A stretch of 64,000 bases of DNA from Candidatus Amesbacteria bacterium GW2011_GWB1_47_19 (lineage in GTDB: Bacteria; Patescibacteriota; Microgenomatia; CAZETR01; Amesbacteraceae). The position numbers were made by a program, and so were the translations under genes. Shown here piece after piece: positions 3,531-17,540 of this stretch. The notes beneath the pieces are model-generated. The model made no database searches, was not told where the DNA came from, and was given only the letters and a program-made list of their open reading frames with translations. The first letter of the stretch is position 1; each line of letters opens with the position of its first letter. The stretch is from assembly GCA_001002325.1 (NCBI GenBank), contig LCNZ01000007.1:91410-155409 (forward strand). The letters are read 5' to 3'.

Positions 3531-4915
3531 CTTGTATTTCAGGAAGTGGTAGGAATTTTTTTTGAGAGTTTGATCCTGGCTCAGGATGAACGCTGGCGGA
3601 GTGCCTTAGGCATGCAAGTGGAATGTCGATAATCCCGCAAGGGATGATCGGCATCGCAGACGGGTGAGTACAGCGTAGGAATTTGCCCAATGGTGGGGAA
3701 TAACTCGCCGAAAGGCGGGCTAATACCGCATAAGATCGCAAGATGAAAGGCCGTAACTGGCCGCCGATGGAGAAGCCTACGTCCTATCAGCTAGTTGGTG
3801 GGGTAAAAGCCTACCAAGGCTATGACGGGTAGCTGGACTGAGAGGTTGGTCAGCCACAATAGCACTGAGACACGGGCTATACATCTACGGATGGCAGCAA
3901 CCGGGAATATTGCGCAATGGACGAAAGTCTGACGCAGCGACTCCGCGTGAGGGATGACGGCCTTCGGGTCTTAAACCTCTTTTGTCCCGCTATACGGCGG
4001 GGAGAATAAGCACCTGCTAACCACGTGCCAGCAGCCGCGGTAATACGTGGGGTGCAAGCGTTATCCGGATTTACTGGGCGTAAAGAGTTCGTAGGCGTTT
4101 TGCCAAGTTTTGTTTGAAAGACCGAGGCTCAACTTCGGAAACGGACGAAATACTGGCAGAATCGAGTTAGTTAGGGGGTACTGGAACTATCAGTGTAGCA
4201 GTGAAATGCGTTGATATTGACAGGAACACCAAGGGCGAAGGCAGGTACCTGGGACTTAACTGACGCTGAGGAACGAAAGCTAGGGGAGCGAAACGGATTA
4301 GAGACCCGTGTAGTCCTAGCCGTAAACTATGTACGCTTGATCCTTGATTTCCGCCTTTGGCGGAGCTGGGGGTTGGAGCTAACGCGTGAAGCGTACCGCC
4401 TGGGGAGTACGACCGCAAGGTTAAAACTCAAAGGAATTGACGGGGAAGTGCACAACCAGGGGAGCATGTGGTTCAATTCGATACGAAGCGAAGGACCTTA
4501 CCCAGACTTGACATCTCGAAGTTCTACTTTGCAGAAATGCGAAGGAGTCCGTAAGGAGATCGAGACAGCTGCTGCATGGCTGTCGTCAGCTCGTGCCGTG
4601 GGGTGTCGACTTAAGTGTCGAAACGAGCGCAACCCTTATCGCATGTTCAATAGTCTTGCGAAACCTACAATGGGGAGTAACAACGGGTTGCCAAGCCGCA
4701 AGGCGGAGCTAATCCCATCAAACCTCCCCCCAGTTCAGATTGAGGGCTGCAACTCGCCCTCATGAAGACGGACTTGGTAGTAATCGCGGATCAGCAGGCC
4801 GCGGTGAATACGTTCTCACTTCTTGTACACACCGCCCATCAAGCCAGCAAAGTCGGCAATACCTGAAACTCTGGGTTTCCCGGGGCAAGGGTAGGGTCGG
4901 CGATGAGGGCTAAGT

Positions 4916-5640
4916 TGTAAATTGTTGCAACTTGCAGGAGTAATTCTGCAAACAAATCTCGCTGTATCGGTGGAGCCTAAATTGATTTCGGGTATATTTC
5001 GGTATACACTTAATTGACATGGGAATACCGAGGGAACCCTTCGGCTTCGCTCAGGGCAAGCCGCTGGGACGCCGTAGAGACTACACGCGAGCGCCGGTAA
5101 CAAAGGCATATTTAATGGGTATTATTCATGACGCAACCGAGAGAAAGTTAACTTTCCGTATTGCCCAGAAAAGTGAAGAATTTCTTCGCTATTTGAGCAG
5201 GGAATTGGCGCTATCGGATATCAAATCCTGGATTTATAAGGAAGGGAAAACCAGGCAAGTTTGGATTTTGGAATTTTCCAAAAAACATTTGACCGGAATA
5301 AAGATTAAATCCAGAAAAGATAAAGTTGATTATCTGAGGGGTTATTTTGACGCGGAAGGCGGAATTGCCAGAAATCCTAATGTAAGGTTTTACCTGTATT
5401 ATTGTCAAAAGAATTTTGATGAAATGGTGCAGGTGAAAACAATGCTGGAGGATATCGGGATAAGTTGCGGGAAGATTCATAACCCAAACAGGATAAAAGA
5501 CCCGGATTTTTATAGATTTTATATCAGAGCAAAATCTTATACGGATTTTGCCCGAAAAATTGGGTCGTTGCATCCTGAAAAGATGTCTTTGTTGAGGATG
5601 AAGATATAGTCCAAGCCCCGATGAAAATCGGGGAGCACCT
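4916..5640 (+). mobile_element. Group I intron in 16S rRNA (E. coli position ~1506) carrying a homing-endonuclease ORF. Boundaries are accurate to about +/-10 nt.
   Basis: Exon sequence ...gggctaagt is interrupted and resumes at ...gaacaaggtatccc..ggatcacctcc. The intron shares the motif 'tcgggtatatttcgg' with 23S intron 1. Confidence 0.7.
5019..5609 (+). CDS. LAGLIDADG homing endonuclease, intron-encoded.
   Basis: A LRGYFDAEGG motif plus a degenerate upstream motif (YLMGIIHDATE). The ORF lies wholly inside the 16S insertion. Confidence 0.7.
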   Translation: MGIPREPFGFAQGKPLGRRRDYTRAPVTKAYLMGIIHDATERKLTFRIAQKSEEFLRYLSRELALSDIKSWIYKEGKTRQVWILEFSKKHLTGIKIKSRKDKVDYLRGYFDAEGGIARNPNVRFYLYYCQKNFDEMVQVKTMLEDIGISCGKIHNPNRIKDPDFYRFYIRAKSYTDFARKIGSLHPEKMSLLRMKI

Positions 5641-5820
5641 TGAACAAGGTATCCCTAGCCGAAGCTGGGGATGGATCACCTCCTTTCTAGGAGTATCTAA
5701 TACACCCCGAGGTTACGGATAAGGTTCTCGTAAAAAAACCTATCACATGAAACGGGATTGGTTGACTAACGTCAAATCACCAACCGCCGTTTTCCTACCA
5801 CTTCTTGGAATATAATAAGA

Positions 5821-5878
5821 ATAACTCACCCCTAACCCCTCTCTTAATCTAAGAGAGGGGATAAGAAGAGGGGGAGGA
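5821..5878 (+). repeat. Nested palindromic repeat, copy A (intergenic).
   Basis: ctcacccctaacccctctcttaatctaagagagggg... is an inverted repeat. It matches copies at 30121, 41092, 42012 and 42287. Confidence 0.7.
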
Positions 5879-5882
5879 AGAA

Positions 5883-5908
5883 AGCCCGCCATACGGTGGG
5901 TTTTTTGG
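5883..5908 (+). terminator. Rho-independent terminator after 16S.
   Basis: Stem cccgcc/ggtggg with an atac loop, followed by tttttt. Confidence 0.55.
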
Positions 5909-15310: not shown

Positions 15311-16135
15311 TTAACCAAAAAGGTCATCGGGGTGCATGGCTAGCAATAGCTTTAGCAAGTCTGTTTTAATTGGTTATTTCTGACTCATATCGGGGAACTC
15401 CTTGAATTCGTGTTTGTTTCGGTTTAGTCTAGATTAACATGAACGAGGACAATCCCGAGGGAAGTCTTACGGAAATGGAAAAGCACATTGTTGAGGGTTG
15501 CCTATTGGGTGACGCAACGATGAGAATAAAAACTAATTCTTTGATTGAAATCAACCACTCTTTCAAACAGAAGGCCTTGGTTGATCATTTGTACTTTGTT
15601 TTGAAAAGATTTGTGATTACAAAACCAAAAATGCGGAGAGGTAATGGAACAAGGTTTGCTTATCGGTTTACTACCCGGTCTTTATCTTTGTTCAACGATT
15701 TTTTCTTTCGCTTTTATGCTGGTGGGAAAAAGAAAATTCCTCATGATCTAGATTTAACTCCTGTTCATCTGGCGTATTGGCTTATGGATGATGGGAGCAG
15801 AACTTATAATACCGTGTATTTAAATACTCAACAATTTATAAAAAGTGATCAAGAGGTATTATTAAGCAAACTCCGTGAATTACACATTGCGGCTTCGTTA
15901 AACAAAGACAAGACATATCAAAGAATAAGGATTGCCGTATCAAGCATTCCGAGATTGAAAAATGTGGTGATACCATATATTCTTCCGGAAATGCGATACA
16001 AAATTCCGTAATGACCCTGTATCGACTTGTGGTTTCAAGACCACGGACTCGCCTTTCGGCGGGTAAGACGTCAGCTCCCGATTTGCTTTATTGGGATGAA
16101 GGTATAGTCAGCGCTTCGAGTAATCGGAGTATCTA
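15311..16135 (+). mobile_element. Group I intron 3 in 23S (E. coli position ~2449).
   Basis: The exon breaks after ..ggtttggcacc and resumes at ..gcgatgtcggctcaccctatcctgg. Confidence 0.7.
15439..16011 (+). CDS. LAGLIDADG homing endonuclease (double-motif type).
   Basis: Two motifs, CLLGDATM and WLMDDGS. The ORF is inside the intron. Confidence 0.65.
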   Translation: MNEDNPEGSLTEMEKHIVEGCLLGDATMRIKTNSLIEINHSFKQKALVDHLYFVLKRFVITKPKMRRGNGTRFAYRFTTRSLSLFNDFFFRFYAGGKKKIPHDLDLTPVHLAYWLMDDGSRTYNTVYLNTQQFIKSDQEVLLSKLRELHIAASLNKDKTYQRIRIAVSSIPRLKNVVIPYILPEMRYKIP

Positions 16136-16242
16136 TGCGATGTCGGCTCACCCTATCCTGGAGGGGCAGTACCTTCCAAGGGTCCGTCTGTTCGCCGGTT
16201 AAAAGGGTACGCGAGCTGGGTTCAGAACGTCGTGAGACAGTT

Positions 16243-17051
16243 GACCCGCCTTAACATTTGGCGGGTGACACTGAGCTGTCCATCCTTCAAAACGTTTTGA
16301 ATGTATAAGAGGAGTCTGTTAATTGAAGGTCCCAAAATCAGTTTGGGAATAAATCTGACTAAATGCTGGAAAACCTTGTTAAGTAGTATCTACTAGTATA
16401 TGATTTGTATACTAGTAACAAAGATACCTAATTCGGTGGATACGAAGCAAGGCAATCAGCAGGAAAGGCTAGTTAAAGAAATCAGCGACGATTATTTGAG
16501 AGGTTTTGTAGAAGGCGAGGGCTGTTTCTATATAGGAATAGTTAAGTCTTCTGAAACACTTACTCATTGGCAAGTGGTCTATTTTTTCAAAGTTTCCCAA
16601 AATCCATCCGGAAGGGTGGTGTTGGAGAAGCTTAAGGAAAAACTGGGCTGCGGTTATATTAAAAGAAATAGTCTAACTGACAAAACCGATAAAAGTTTGG
16701 CATTTGTTGTGAGAGACTTGCCAAGTTTGTCCGAGAAAGTAATTCCGTTTTTTAAGGATATGCTGTTTACACAAAAGAAGGACGACTTTCAAAAGTTTTC
16801 TCAAGTTGTGGTAATAGTATCTTTGGGGAAACATCTAAAAAAGACCGGAATGAAAGAAATTCTTGACGTCGCTTATACGATGAATACAGGTAAACGCAAG
16901 TATTCAAAGGAAGAGATACTGAAGAATTTTGATGACTAGAATCCTCAACGACTATACGTCAGATCCCGCTTGGCGGGAAAGATATAGTCTGAACCCTATA
17001 GTGATATAGGGAGCGAATACTATTCGCCGTTTTTTAACGTAACAATAATGT
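16243..17051 (+). mobile_element. Group I intron 4 in 23S (E. coli position ~2593, the classical I-CreI/I-CeuI homing region).
   Basis: The exon breaks after ..cgtgagacagtt and resumes at cggtctctatccagtagag..cagtacgagaggacc. Confidence 0.7.
16400..16939 (+). CDS. LAGLIDADG homing endonuclease (single-motif type).
   Basis: LRGFVEGEGCF motif. The ORF is inside the intron. Confidence 0.75.
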   Translation: MICILVTKIPNSVDTKQGNQQERLVKEISDDYLRGFVEGEGCFYIGIVKSSETLTHWQVVYFFKVSQNPSGRVVLEKLKEKLGCGYIKRNSLTDKTDKSLAFVVRDLPSLSEKVIPFFKDMLFTQKKDDFQKFSQVVVIVSLGKHLKKTGMKEILDVAYTMNTGKRKYSKEEILKNFDD

Positions 17052-17420
17052 CGGTCTCTATCCAGTAGAGTCGTGGAGTTTTTGAGGGGGTCTGACCTCA
17101 GTACGAGAGGACCAGGTTGGAGGCACCACTGGTGTGCCGGTTGTAGCGTCAGCTGCACCGCCGGGTAGCTAAGTGCCTACGGGATAACCGCTGAAAGCAT
17201 CTAAGTGGGAAGCCCTACCCAAGATAAGAAACTCGTCCCGCCGTAAGGCGGGTAAAGACACGGGGTAGACTACCCCGTATAAGAGGCTGGCGGTGTAAGT
17301 TCGGTAACGGATTTAGCCTACCAGTACTAATAAGTCTTTTCGAAGTTGATTTACGGTTTTTACTGCTTTCATTCTCTTCACCTTTCGGGGTACAAATAAA
17401 ATTCATTTAAGAGCGCATTG

Positions 17421-17540
17421 TTCTCGGTCATCTGAGCGGCGTGGAACTACTTCTTCCCATTCCGAACAGAACCGTAAAACGCGCCAGCGCCGACAATAGC
17501 TGAGGGGCAACCTTCCGTGAAGATAGGTCATGGCCGAGAA
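17421..17540 (+). rRNA. rrf: 5S rRNA.
   Basis: The CCGAACAGAACCGTAAAACGCGCCAGCGCCGA core matches 5S loop B/C. A terminal helix forms between ttctcggtcat and atggccgaga. A longer flanking stem and a T-tract follow. Confidence 0.8.

What the first reader, a model, noticed from the sequence alone, without database searches (positions are those of the whole stretch)
3563..17540. rRNA genes carry five group I introns, each with its own LAGLIDADG homing-endonuclease gene
The 16S and 23S regions are about 0.7 kb and about 3 kb longer than normal. Conserved rRNA blocks are interrupted at E. coli-equivalent positions 16S ~1506 and 23S ~1917, ~1931, ~2449 and ~2593. Each insertion contains an ORF with LAGLIDADG motifs: LRGYFDAEGG, LAGFVEGEGSF, LSGYADGEGSF, CLLGDATM/WLMDDGS and LRGFVEGEGCF. 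The sum of 23S exon lengths is about 2.93 kb, as expected. Two introns lie only ~35 nt apart (1917 and 1931). The 16S intron and 23S intron 1 share the motif 'tcgggtatatttcgg', which suggests they are related. This intron density is a signature of CPR/Patescibacteria rRNA operons and of active homing-endonuclease traffic.
Basis: partly seen in the sequence, partly recalled or inferred. Interest (0 to 1): 0.6.

Follow-up and report, generated by a model that had tools for sequence, protein, structure and literature searches.

The report
Five endonuclease-carrying introns in rRNA genes

Summary
The finding is real and its main interpretation holds, but it is already known.

**What is there**
- The 16S gene (3558-5687) has one 724-nt insert.
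- The 23S gene (11420 to about 17351) has four inserts of 692, 676, 826 and 809 nt.
- Each insert carries an intact LAGLIDADG ORF that scores above Pfam's cut-off.

**Corrected positions**
- The sites are 16S U1498 and 23S U1917, U1951, U2500 and U2604.

**Evidence for group I introns**
- Every insert follows an exon U that pairs with a G of an internal guide sequence, and every insert ends in G.
- All have P, Q, R and S core elements.
- Long-range P3 and P4 pairings covary with homologues from other genomes.
- The Rfam group I model stays below its gathering score here (17-39 bits). ORF-less relatives of both sequence classes reach 52-74 bits.

**Why it is not new**
- The contig matches Candidatus Amesbacteria GW2011_GWB1_47_19, from the groundwater genome series in which CPR rRNA introns were first described.
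- GenBank already names the 16S ORF a LAGLIDADG endonuclease.
- Tsurumaki et al. 2024 list sites 1498, 1917, 1952 and 2604.

**Other corrections**
- The 16S and 23S genes are not adjacent; 5.7 kb of other genes lies between them.
- The window's 16S lacks 76 conserved bases, which is an assembly artefact.

The parts
3558..4918 (+). 16S rRNA exon 1, ending at E. coli U1498
   Evidence: RF00177 at 1156 bits. blastn to E. coli 16S. Junction read from the sequence. This copy lacks 76 conserved nt between positions 4664 and 4665.
4919..5642 (+). Group I intron S1498 (724 nt, core class B). The internal guide sequence is at 4927-4934, the S element at 5601-5611 and the terminal G at 5642.
   Evidence: P1 of 8 bp with a U.G wobble, plus P10 of 5 bp; 12 of 5000 shuffles reach this. 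RF00028 at 39.4 bits, E 3e-8. P3 and P4 covary with homologues. P2 shows compensatory changes in relative L115.
5019..5609 (+). Homing-endonuclease ORF of the S1498 intron (196 aa, two LAGLIDADG motifs, I-DmoI-like)
   Evidence: Pfam LAGLIDADG_3 at 49.4 bits against a cut-off of 22.5. AlphaFold2 mean pLDDT 84. Foldseek best match I-DmoI, E 1.7e-9, TM-score 0.6. 487 homologous clusters; GenBank names it a LAGLIDADG homing endonuclease.
5643..5687 (+). 16S rRNA exon 2 (E. coli A1499 to the 3' end, including the anti-Shine-Dalgarno sequence)
   Evidence: blastn to E. coli 1499-1541. The sequence reads AACAAGGTA...GGATCACCTCCTTTCT.
11420..13380 (+). 23S rRNA exon 1, ending at U1917
   Evidence: RF02541. 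blastn to E. coli 44-1917.
13381..14072 (+). Group I intron L1917 (692 nt, core class A). The internal guide sequence is at 13397-13403 and the S element at 14008-14018.
   Evidence: P1 of 7 bp plus P10 of 3 bp. RF00028 at 32.0 bits, E 5.5e-6. The P, Q, R and S elements are readable in the sequence. P3 is paired in 36 of 36 cells across class A.
13484..14011 (+). Homing-endonuclease ORF of the L1917 intron (175 aa, single LAGLIDADG motif)
   Evidence: Pfam LAGLIDADG_1 at 75.9 bits. Matches in the PDB (solved structures) to halves of I-SmaMI and I-OnuI, E down to 2e-40.
14073..14106 (+). 23S rRNA exon 2 (34 nt, A1918 to U1951)
   Evidence: blastn. Junctions read from the sequence.
14107..14782 (+). 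Group I intron L1951 (676 nt, core class B, with a P7.1/P7.2 insert). The internal guide sequence is at 14122-14129 and the S element at 14741-14751.
   Evidence: P1 of 8 bp. RF00028 reaches only 17.3 bits here, but the 181-nt ORF-less homologue L040 at the same site scores 54.7 bits. P3 is paired in 60 of 60 cells and P4 in 71 of 72.
14247..14738 (+). Homing-endonuclease ORF of the L1951 intron (163 aa; a start at M9, position 14271, is also possible)
   Evidence: Pfam LAGLIDADG_1 at 86 bits. PDB matches with E down to 3e-33.
14783..15311 (+). 23S rRNA exon 3 (A1952 to U2500)
   Evidence: blastn.
15312..16137 (+). Group I intron L2500 (826 nt, core class B, with P7.1/P7.2). The internal guide sequence is at 15330-15335 and the S element at 16099-16109.
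   Evidence: P1 of 6 bp plus P10 of 5 bp; 12 of 5000 shuffles reach this. RF00028 at 22.2 bits. ORF-less homologues L051 and L091 share the core; L051 scores 24.4 bits, E 2.6e-4. P3 and P4 covary.
15439..16011 (+). Homing-endonuclease ORF of the L2500 intron (190 aa, two motifs, I-SceI-like)
   Evidence: Pfam LAGLIDADG_2 at 106.8 bits, covering 2-168 of 168 profile positions. I-SceI match with E 1.2e-16 over residues 20-190.
16138..16241 (+). 23S rRNA exon 4 (C2501 to U2604)
   Evidence: blastn. A separate LSU model match also covers it.
16242..17050 (+). Group I intron L2604 (809 nt, core class A). The internal guide sequence is at 16275-16280 and the S element at 16979-16989.
   Evidence: P1 of 6 bp plus P10 of 5 bp. 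RF00028 at 38.6 bits, E 5.8e-7. P3 is paired in 36 of 36 cells.
16400..16939 (+). Homing-endonuclease ORF of the L2604 intron (179 aa, single motif)
   Evidence: Pfam LAGLIDADG_1 at 71.1 bits. PDB matches with E down to 1.6e-34.
17051..17351 (+). 23S rRNA exon 5 (U2605 to the 3' end; the end is approximate)
   Evidence: blastn to E. coli 2605-2884 reaches position 17331. The last 20 nt were placed by eye against the E. coli 3' end.
17423..17539 (+). 5S rRNA
   Evidence: RF00001 at 75.4 bits.

Best explanation
These are five mobile group I introns in the single-copy rRNA genes of a CPR (Candidate Phyla Radiation) bacterium, Candidatus Amesbacteria.

**Splicing (inferred).** After transcription, each intron folds into the group I ribozyme. 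Its internal guide sequence pairs with the last 6-8 exon bases (P1, with a U.G wobble at the cleavage site). It then pairs with the first bases of the next exon (P10). A free guanosine attacks the 5' splice site. The terminal G of the intron then docks, and the exons are ligated. This restores the decoding-site strand of 16S (1498/1499), helix 69 (1917) and the peptidyl-transferase region of 23S (1951, 2500, 2604).

**Homing (inferred).** Each intron also encodes a LAGLIDADG endonuclease. Three are single-motif enzymes expected to act as homodimers (L1917, L1951, L2604). Two are two-motif monomers: the L2500 enzyme is I-SceI-like and the S1498 enzyme is I-DmoI-like. Each enzyme would cut an intron-less copy of its own insertion site. 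Repair from an intron-bearing copy then spreads the intron.

**Shown here:** the anatomy, the pairings, the covariation, and the family and fold of the proteins.

**Not shown here:** splicing itself and DNA cleavage.
For: **Boundaries**
- Exon boundaries come from alignment to E. coli rRNA and from reading the junctions.
- Intron-less 23S copies in L005 and L006 join exactly at these junctions.

**Splice-site pairings**
- All five inserts have a U before the 5' splice site paired to a G, end in G, and have P1 of 6-8 bp.
- P10 is 3-5 bp in four of the five.
- Shuffles reach the observed P1 plus P10 in 12, 73, 721, 12 and 42 of 5000 trials.

**Rfam group I model (RF00028)**
- Matches occur in every insert at 39.4, 38.6, 32.0, 22.2 and 17.3 bits. 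Three have E below 1e-5.
- ORF-less relatives at the L1951 site reach the gathering score of 50. They score 74.1 (L051) and 52.2 bits (L034) for class A and 54.7 bits (L040) for class B. A further class A intron in L034 scores 73.7 bits.

**Covariation in the core**
- Class B P3 is paired in 60 of 60 cells, with compensatory changes at 3 of 5 pairs; 0 of 5000 permutations reach this.
- Class B P4 is paired in 71 of 72 cells; 0 of 5000 permutations reach this.
- Class A P3 is paired in 36 of 36 cells; 2 of 720 permutations reach this.

**Proteins**
- All five ORFs exceed the Pfam LAGLIDADG cut-offs with near full-length coverage.
- Solved-structure homologues were found for four, and an I-DmoI-like predicted fold for the fifth.

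**Reality of the sequence**
- The introns are identical in three other assemblies of this organism (L002, L003, L004).

**Literature**
- PMC11270868 reports CPR rRNA insertions at 16S 1498 and 23S 1917, 1952 and 2604 with these endonuclease families.
- The same paper reports that Brown et al. found such insertions removed from transcripts, and that one CPR enzyme (I-ShaI) cleaves its insertion site.
Against: - None of the five inserts reaches Rfam's gathering score of 50 bits for RF00028. L1951 (17.3 bits, E 0.14) and L2500 (22.2 bits) are weak on their own.
- An ORF-less L2500 relative scores only 24.4 bits.
- For L1951 no P10 lies directly next to P1. Only an offset pairing, CGGAA/UUCCG, was found by eye.
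- Splicing and endonuclease activity were not observed for this organism.
- The helix tables used anchors that I chose, so they lean slightly towards the proposed structure.
Confidence: 0.93

Rival explanations
1. The inserts are group I introns, but they are inherited vertically as residents. The endonucleases would be inactive or re-used as splicing helpers (maturases), so there is no ongoing homing traffic.
For: - The five introns are identical in all assemblies of this organism.
- No trustworthy presence/absence polymorphism was found in close relatives. L005 and L006 look chimeric.
- PMC11270868 argues that several sites were acquired by the CPR (Candidate Phyla Radiation) ancestor.
- LAGLIDADG proteins are known to act as maturases in some systems (general knowledge; PMC11270868 also mentions this).
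Against: - All five ORFs are full length with the acidic motif residues kept.
- PMC11270868 finds that endonuclease trees disagree with host trees.
- PMC11270868 also shows that I-ShaI, a CPR enzyme, cleaves its target.
Confidence: 0.25
2. The inserts are intervening sequences cut out by RNase III without ligation, leaving fragmented rRNA, or they are expansion segments kept in the mature rRNA.
For: - Bacterial 23S intervening sequences of this kind exist and may also occur in CPR bacteria (PMC11270868).
- Rfam group I scores for the window's inserts are below the gathering threshold.
Against: - The inserts lie in the functional core of the ribosome: 16S 1498, helix 69, and 23S 2500 and 2604.
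- They do not lie at the CPR sites that PMC11270868 equates with known RNase III-cleaved intervening-sequence sites (its 23IS2 and 23IS4). That paper places its group I sites (23IS6-14) in the 3' part of 23S, where these four inserts lie.
- A free 34-nt fragment would have to form helix 69.
- All five have P1 and a terminal G, plus a group I core supported by covariation.
- Brown et al. report that such insertions are removed from transcripts (cited in PMC11270868).
Confidence: 0.03
3. The inserts are assembly artefacts, that is, chimeric joins of rRNA pieces from different organisms in a metagenome.
For: - This locus does carry assembly errors. The window lacks 76 nt of 16S, and the NCBI version lacks three other rRNA pieces.
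- L005 and L006 look chimeric.
Against: - The five inserts with identical sequence and junctions occur in three other assemblies of this organism, from ENA, JGI and NCBI.
- L007 also carries the first two 23S introns.
- The guide sequences match this organism's own exon sequences.
Confidence: 0.01

Closest known systems
rRNA insertion sequences of CPR (Candidate Phyla Radiation) bacteria (Brown et al. 2015 as cited in, and Tsurumaki et al. 2024, PMC11270868)
   Same: - Same host clade and same kind of element.
- Same sites: 16S 1498 and 23S 1917, 1952 and 2604.
- Same pairing of endonuclease family to site: LAGLIDADG_1 in 23S, and LAGLIDADG_3 only in 16S.
- Proteins of about 180-200 aa.
- The window's organism comes from a groundwater genome series of the kind analysed there.
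   Different: Nothing of substance. Site 2500 is not named in the paper's main text; it may be one of its unnamed sites 23IS9-11.
[quoted passage not shown]
   Same: - Two group I introns at the same two sites.
- The Coxiella L1951 intron also encodes a LAGLIDADG enzyme (157 aa against 163 aa here).
- From my memory of Raghavan et al. 2007, not re-read here, the Coxiella introns also flank a 34-bp exon.
   Different: - The host is a gammaproteobacterium.
- PMC1995217 Table 1 lists an endonuclease gene for the Coxiella L1951 intron only, not for L1917; both carry one here.
- Sequence relatedness to the Coxiella introns was not tested.
Synechococcus sp. C9 and Thermotoga L1917 introns with LAGLIDADG genes (PMC1995217)
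   Same: - Same site and similar size (743 and 774 nt against 692 nt).
- Single-motif endonuclease.
- The ORF starts in the P6 region and reads on through P7, P3 and P8.
- No P2.
   Different: - Here the ORF stops in J8/7 rather than in P9.
- Direct sequence comparison was not done.
I-DmoI (archaeal 23S rRNA intron endonuclease; PDB entries 1b24 and 2vs7)
   Same: The S1498 protein has the same two-motif monomer fold (Foldseek E 1.7e-9, probability 1.0, TM-score 0.6). It belongs to the same Pfam family, LAGLIDADG_3.
   Different: - Only 21% sequence identity, and no hit by sequence search.
- I-DmoI sits in an archaeal intron that, from general knowledge, is spliced by a protein endonuclease rather than in a group I ribozyme.
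- The target gene and site differ.
I-SceI (yeast mitochondrial 21S rRNA omega intron)
   Same: The L2500 protein aligns over residues 20-190 with both motifs conserved (LGDA and MDDG), E 1.2e-16. It belongs to Pfam LAGLIDADG_2.
   Different: - From general knowledge, I-SceI sits at site L2449; this one is at L2500.
- The protein is shorter (190 against 235 aa).

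Membership tests
Group I intron (Rfam RF00028) | P1 helix between the 5' exon end and an internal guide sequence, with a U.G wobble at the cleavage site | tested here: met
   All five have an exon U paired to a guide-sequence G, with P1 of 6-8 bp.
Group I intron (Rfam RF00028) | Terminal G at the 3' end of the intron, and a P10 pairing of the 3' exon next to P1 | tested here: met
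   All five end in G. P10 of 3-5 bp lies directly beside P1 in four of them. L1951 has only an offset pairing found by eye.
Group I intron (Rfam RF00028) | Conserved catalytic core (P3-P4-P6-P7-P8 with P, Q, R and S elements), supported by covariation | tested here: met
   The elements are readable in all five. Class B P3 is paired in 60 of 60 cells and P4 in 71 of 72, with 0 of 5000 permutations reaching either. Class A P3 is paired in 36 of 36 cells, with 2 of 720 permutations reaching it.
Group I intron (Rfam RF00028) | Covariance-model score at or above Rfam's gathering score of 50 bits | tested here: inconclusive
   The window's inserts score 39.4, 38.6, 32.0, 22.2 and 17.3 bits; large ORFs interrupt the model. 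ORF-less relatives of both classes score 52-74 bits. An ORF-less L2500 relative scores only 24.4 bits.
Group I intron (Rfam RF00028) | Guanosine-dependent self-splicing with exon ligation | not testable with these tools
   This needs in vitro splicing or RNA reads. The literature reports that CPR (Candidate Phyla Radiation) insertions are removed from transcripts (PMC11270868, citing Brown et al.).
LAGLIDADG homing endonuclease | Match to a LAGLIDADG profile above the curated cut-off | tested here: met
   All five ORFs match: PF14528 at 49.4 bits; PF00961 at 75.9, 86.0 and 71.1 bits; PF03161 at 106.8 bits.
LAGLIDADG homing endonuclease | LAGLIDADG helix motif ending in a catalytic acidic residue | tested here: met
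   The motifs are LAGFVEGEG, LSGYADGEG, LRGFVEGEG, LLGDA plus LMDDG, and IIHDA plus YFDAEG. D38 and D111 are invariant in the S1498 family alignment.
LAGLIDADG homing endonuclease | The alpha-beta-beta-alpha-beta-beta-alpha fold of the family | tested here: met
   Sequence homology to solved enzymes was found for four ORFs. The fifth has a predicted fold matching I-DmoI.
LAGLIDADG homing endonuclease | Cleavage of the intron-less insertion site | not testable with these tools
   This needs a biochemical assay. It has been shown for one CPR enzyme, I-ShaI (PMC11270868).
RNase III-processed rRNA intervening sequence | Located at the known sites of RNase III-cleaved bacterial 23S intervening sequences, with no ribozyme core | tested here: not met
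   The sites are 16S 1498 and 23S 1917, 1951, 2500 and 2604, all in the functional core. They are not the CPR sites that PMC11270868 equates with known RNase III-cleaved sites (its 23IS2 and 23IS4). A group I core is present.

The most novel reading that the evidence does not exclude
The exact 18-nt sequence AUUUCGGGUAUAUUUCGG sits at the tip of the P5 arm in two otherwise unrelated introns of the same genome: S1498 (class B, I-DmoI-like enzyme) and L1917 (class A, single-motif enzyme). It could be a functional module rather than a chance or gene-conversion patch. For example, it could be a shared binding site for a host or intron-encoded splicing factor, or a shared tertiary contact.
Probability: 0.08. 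Interest if true: 0.4.

Novelty: already known. Interest (0 to 1): 0.15.

Why it matters
It matters little as a discovery. Intron-rich rRNA genes are an established hallmark of CPR (Candidate Phyla Radiation) bacteria. This genome belongs to the groundwater series in which they were first described, and the sites and endonuclease families are already catalogued.

The practical value is in annotation. The exact exon/intron coordinates allow the mature 16S and 23S rRNAs to be reconstructed. Without them these genes are mis-sized, escape universal primers and mislead rRNA finders; Rfam's own LSU match here stops at 15442.

The window's 16S also needs the missing 76 nt restored before any phylogenetic use.

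Tried and rejected
1. **Rfam at gathering threshold.** It found no group I intron in the window. I did not take this as a refutation, because E-value searches, hand-read cores and ORF-less relatives show that the ORFs break the model.
2. **L005 and L006 as evidence of intron polymorphism.** These contigs have intron-less 23S sites and flanks about 100% identical to the window. I rejected them as evidence because their 23S exons are only about 88% identical, so they are probably chimeric assemblies. I used them only to confirm junctions.
3. **The genome-contig scan for the L1951 P1 hairpin.** It returned 101 stretches, but only 9 matches passed my 23S-context filter. Two more 23S L1951 introns (L040, L060) were recovered by looser extraction. 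None of the nine also had an L1917 intron. Coxiella was not caught, so no direct comparison with its introns was made.
4. **The metagenome scan for the 18-mer.** It gave 14 hits. Three are S1498 introns and the rest are unrelated, so the idea that the motif is a general group I module is rejected.
5. **My first automatic extraction of P3 strands.** It picked wrong anchors, so I redid it with stricter rules.
6. **Look-ups that found nothing.** These were the taxonomy of the strain name, the assembly accession in papers, 'L2500' in papers, and site numbers in the supplement of PMC11270868.
7. **Group II or archaeal bulge-helix-bulge introns.** I considered and dropped both. All five inserts show group I P1, a terminal G and P/Q/R/S elements.

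Full report
**1. What is in the sequence**

Rfam finds a bacterial 16S starting at 3558, a 23S starting at 11420 and a 5S at 17423-17539. Alignment to E. coli MG1655 rrnH splits the 16S into two blocks and the 23S into five. I read the junctions base by base.

| Intron | Window coordinates | Length | Inserted after |
|---|---|---|---|
| S1498 | 4919-5642 | 724 nt | 16S U1498 |
| L1917 | 13381-14072 | 692 nt | 23S U1917 |
| L1951 | 14107-14782 | 676 nt | 23S U1951 |
| L2500 | 15312-16137 | 826 nt | 23S U2500 |
| L2604 | 16242-17050 | 809 nt | 23S U2604 |

- The alignment alone leaves the S1498 site ambiguous over 1498-1500, the L1951 site over 1951-1954, and the L2604 site over 2604/2605. The group I rule (a U before the site and a G as the last intron base) picks the positions given.
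- The exon between the first two 23S introns is 34 nt.
- The 23S exons sum to about 2.91-2.93 kb.
The site numbers 1506, 1931, 2449 and 2593 are wrong.

**2. The ORFs**

Each insert holds one long ORF. All five pass Pfam's curated cut-offs with near full-length matches.

| Intron | Pfam family | Bits | Closest solved relatives |
|---|---|---|---|
| S1498 | LAGLIDADG_3 | 49.4 | none by sequence; predicted fold matches I-DmoI |
| L1917 | LAGLIDADG_1 | 75.9 | halves of I-SmaMI and I-OnuI, E down to 2e-40 |
| L1951 | LAGLIDADG_1 | 86.0 | halves of the I-OnuI family, E down to 3e-33 |
| L2500 | LAGLIDADG_2 | 106.8 | I-SceI, E 1.2e-16, both motifs aligned |
| L2604 | LAGLIDADG_1 | 71.1 | halves of the I-OnuI family, E down to 1.6e-34 |

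- The three LAGLIDADG_1 proteins have one motif each. They are therefore expected to act as homodimers.
- For the S1498 protein, I built an AlphaFold2 model from an alignment of 33 homologues (mean pLDDT 84). Its best match is I-DmoI and other two-motif archaeal or intein enzymes (Foldseek E 1.7e-9, probability 1.0).

**3. Are the inserts group I introns?**

The Rfam group I model (RF00028) matches every insert, but always below its gathering score of 50 bits. The scores are 39.4 (S1498), 38.6 (L2604), 32.0 (L1917), 22.2 (L2500) and 17.3 (L1951) bits. Three lines of evidence lift this.

- *Splice-site pairings.* Every intron has an internal guide sequence whose G pairs with the last exon U and continues as a 6-8 bp P1. 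In four of the five, the bases just 5' of it pair with the start of the next exon (P10, 3-5 bp). Shuffled sequences reach the observed total in 12, 73, 721, 12 and 42 of 5000 trials.
- *Two readable core classes.*
  - Class A is L1917 and L2604. Its elements are P UAUAUGCUGG, Q AAUCAGCAGG, R CAGAGACUAUACG or CAACGACUAUACG, and S GAUAUAGUC. The ORF sits in the P6 loop.
  - Class B is S1498, L1951 and L2500. Its P4 is UCGGUG/UACCGA and its P6 is GGGAAGUC...GACCCC. L1951 and L2500 have 36-39 nt between P7 and J7/3 (up to 85 nt in relatives), which I read as P7.1/P7.2.
- *Relatives from other genomes.* A scan of species-representative genomes for the L1951 P1 hairpin brought in homologous introns. 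They come from Amesbacteria, Gottesmanbacteria, Parcubacteria and Microgenomates, and from a few MAGs labelled as actinomycete or gammaproteobacterial.
  - ORF-less copies of both classes reach the Rfam threshold: 74.1, 73.7 and 52.2 bits for class A and 54.7 bits for class B.
  - Across 12 class B introns, the long-range P3 helix is paired in 60 of 60 cells, with compensatory changes at three of five pairs. No permutation out of 5000 reaches this.
  - Class B P4 is paired in 71 of 72 cells; again 0 of 5000 permutations reach it.
  - Across six class A introns, P3 is paired in 36 of 36 cells, and 2 of 720 permutations reach it.
  - A diverged S1498 relative (L115) shows two compensatory changes in P2.
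- An ORF-less L2500 relative still scores only 24.4 bits. I read this as low sensitivity of the model to this subclass.

**4. Source and replication**

- The window is 100% identical over 19.5 kb to an ENA re-assembly of a groundwater run (SRR1658462) and to a JGI contig. It also matches NCBI LCIP01000006.1, assembly GCA_000998545.1.
- All of these carry the same five introns, so the introns are not an assembly artefact.
- GenBank names the S1498 ORF 'LAGLIDADG homing endonuclease [Candidatus Amesbacteria bacterium GW2011_GWB1_47_19]', and 487 homologous clusters exist.
- The spliced 23S is about 85% identical to the 23S of an Amesbacteria MAG, a Microgenomates-group MAG and one MAG labelled gammaproteobacterial.

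**5. What is already known**

- Tsurumaki et al. 2024 (PMC11270868) surveyed 380 16S and 348 23S genes of CPR (Candidate Phyla Radiation) bacteria. Insertions occur in 48% and 82% of them respectively.
- Most ORFs in those insertions are LAGLIDADG. LAGLIDADG_1 clusters at 23S 1917, 1931, 1952, 2593, 2604 and 2657. LAGLIDADG_3 is found only in 16S. An insertion site at 16S 1498 is named.
- They cite Brown et al. for the removal of these insertions from transcripts, and they show that one CPR enzyme cleaves its site.
- Coxiella burnetii has self-splicing introns at L1917 and L1951 (PMC4990558; PMC1995217).
- Synechococcus C9 has an L1917 intron whose ORF also runs through P7, P3 and P8 (PMC1995217).
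- Nothing in the window departs from this picture.

**6. The shared motif**

Both lie at the tip of the P5 arm.
- The two introns belong to different core classes and carry different endonuclease families, so they are not close relatives.
- A scan of metagenome contigs found the 18-mer in S1498 introns only. The other 11 hits are unrelated.
- Class A relatives carry a GAAA-loop hairpin at that place instead.
- I read this as a short patch copied between co-resident introns. This is inference.

**7. Mechanism**

- Inferred from the anatomy and from the established group I pathway: the guide sequence aligns both exons, guanosine attacks the 5' splice site, the terminal G docks, and the exons are ligated.
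- All five sites are in parts of the ribosome that cannot tolerate a 0.7-0.8 kb insert: the decoding-site strand, helix 69 and the peptidyl-transferase region. [quoted passage not shown] Splicing must therefore be efficient.
- The endonucleases would drive homing into intron-less alleles.
- The ORFs overlap the ribozyme core.
  - In the S1498 family, the conserved N-terminal peptides MGIPREP and RRDYTRAP are the Q and R elements read as codons.
  - The C-terminal LRMKI-stop is the S element.
  - The variable stretch between the two N-terminal peptides is the P6 hairpin.
  - The first 23 residues are predicted to be disordered.
  - NQQER in the L1917 and L2604 proteins is the class A Q element.

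**8. Rival readings**

- Fragmentation-type intervening sequences and retained expansion segments are contradicted by the sites and the ribozyme core.
- An assembly artefact is contradicted by the replication in other assemblies.
- It remains open whether the endonucleases still drive homing or are merely retained. I found no clean case of presence/absence among near-identical strains.

**9. Verdict**

The finding is a correct reading of a known phenomenon, with four of five site numbers corrected and the extent of the 'operon' corrected. Novelty: already known. Interest: low.

Noticed in passing
window 4664/4665 (within the 16S gene): The window lacks 76 nt of universally conserved 16S sequence (E. 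coli about 1160-1236). The missing stretch is TGCCTTGCG...GGAGGAAGGAGGGGATGACGTCAAGTC...CACACAT. It is present in the otherwise 100%-identical contigs L002 and L003, and also in L004 and L005. It looks like an assembly or version artefact. With it, the mature 16S would be about 1482 nt.
   Followed up: yes
L004 (NCBI LCIP01000006.1) compared with window 3901-4002, 4408-4573 and 12145-12196: The GenBank version of this contig lacks three stretches of conserved 16S and 23S sequence that the window and two other assemblies have. Each gap is bounded by a few shared bases. The deposited rRNA genes are therefore internally deleted.
   Followed up: partly
window 5688-11419: The 16S and the 23S-5S genes are unlinked. 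The 5.7-kb gap holds a UDP-glucose/GDP-mannose dehydrogenase-like gene on the minus strand (5915-6763) and small ORFs. It also holds tRNA-Ile(GAU) on the minus strand (7675-7747), a MacA/HlyD-like gene, an ABC ATPase gene and a MacB/FtsX permease gene (7783-10756). tRNA-Ala(UGC) follows at 11238-11312.
   Followed up: partly
window 5019-5110 and 5590-5609; also 13499-13513 and 16466-16480: The endonuclease ORFs are dual-coded with ribozyme core elements. In the S1498 ORF, MGIPREP is the Q element, RRDYTRAP is the R element and LRMKI-stop is the S element. In the L1917 and L2604 ORFs, NQQER is the class A Q element. These peptides are conserved across 30 or more homologues, while the stretch encoded by P6 varies in length. 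The N-terminal 23 residues have pLDDT below 50.
   Followed up: partly
L006 341-961 (ENA ERZ27254728 contig): A related contig carries a further 16S insert of about 1 kb with a 206-aa LAGLIDADG_2 ORF, upstream of the same S1498 intron. It lies near the place where the window has its 76-nt gap. The contig looks chimeric: flanks are about 100% identical, but the 16S 5' part is 80% and the 23S 88% identical.
   Followed up: partly
L010, L011, L015, L016, L020-L024 and many others (Planctomycetaceae MAGs): The pattern TTCCTTGTCGGGT-N-GCCCGAC, designed for the L1951 P1 hairpin, hit dozens of non-rRNA places in a handful of Planctomycetaceae genomes, always as a 34-nt match. This suggests a dispersed short repeat in those genomes.
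   Followed up: no
L051 and L091 (contigs of 242 kb and 1.0 Mb labelled 'uncultured Gammaproteobacteria'): The 23S genes of these contigs are 82-86% identical to this Amesbacteria 23S. They carry ORF-less L1951 and L2500 introns of the CPR (Candidate Phyla Radiation) types. The taxonomic label of these MAGs is probably wrong.
   Followed up: no
window 1889-3493 (minus strand): The gene next to the 16S encodes a diadenylate cyclase of the CdaA type (CdaA_N and DAC domains) fused to a YbbR-like region, according to the precomputed Pfam hits on identical contigs.
   Followed up: no
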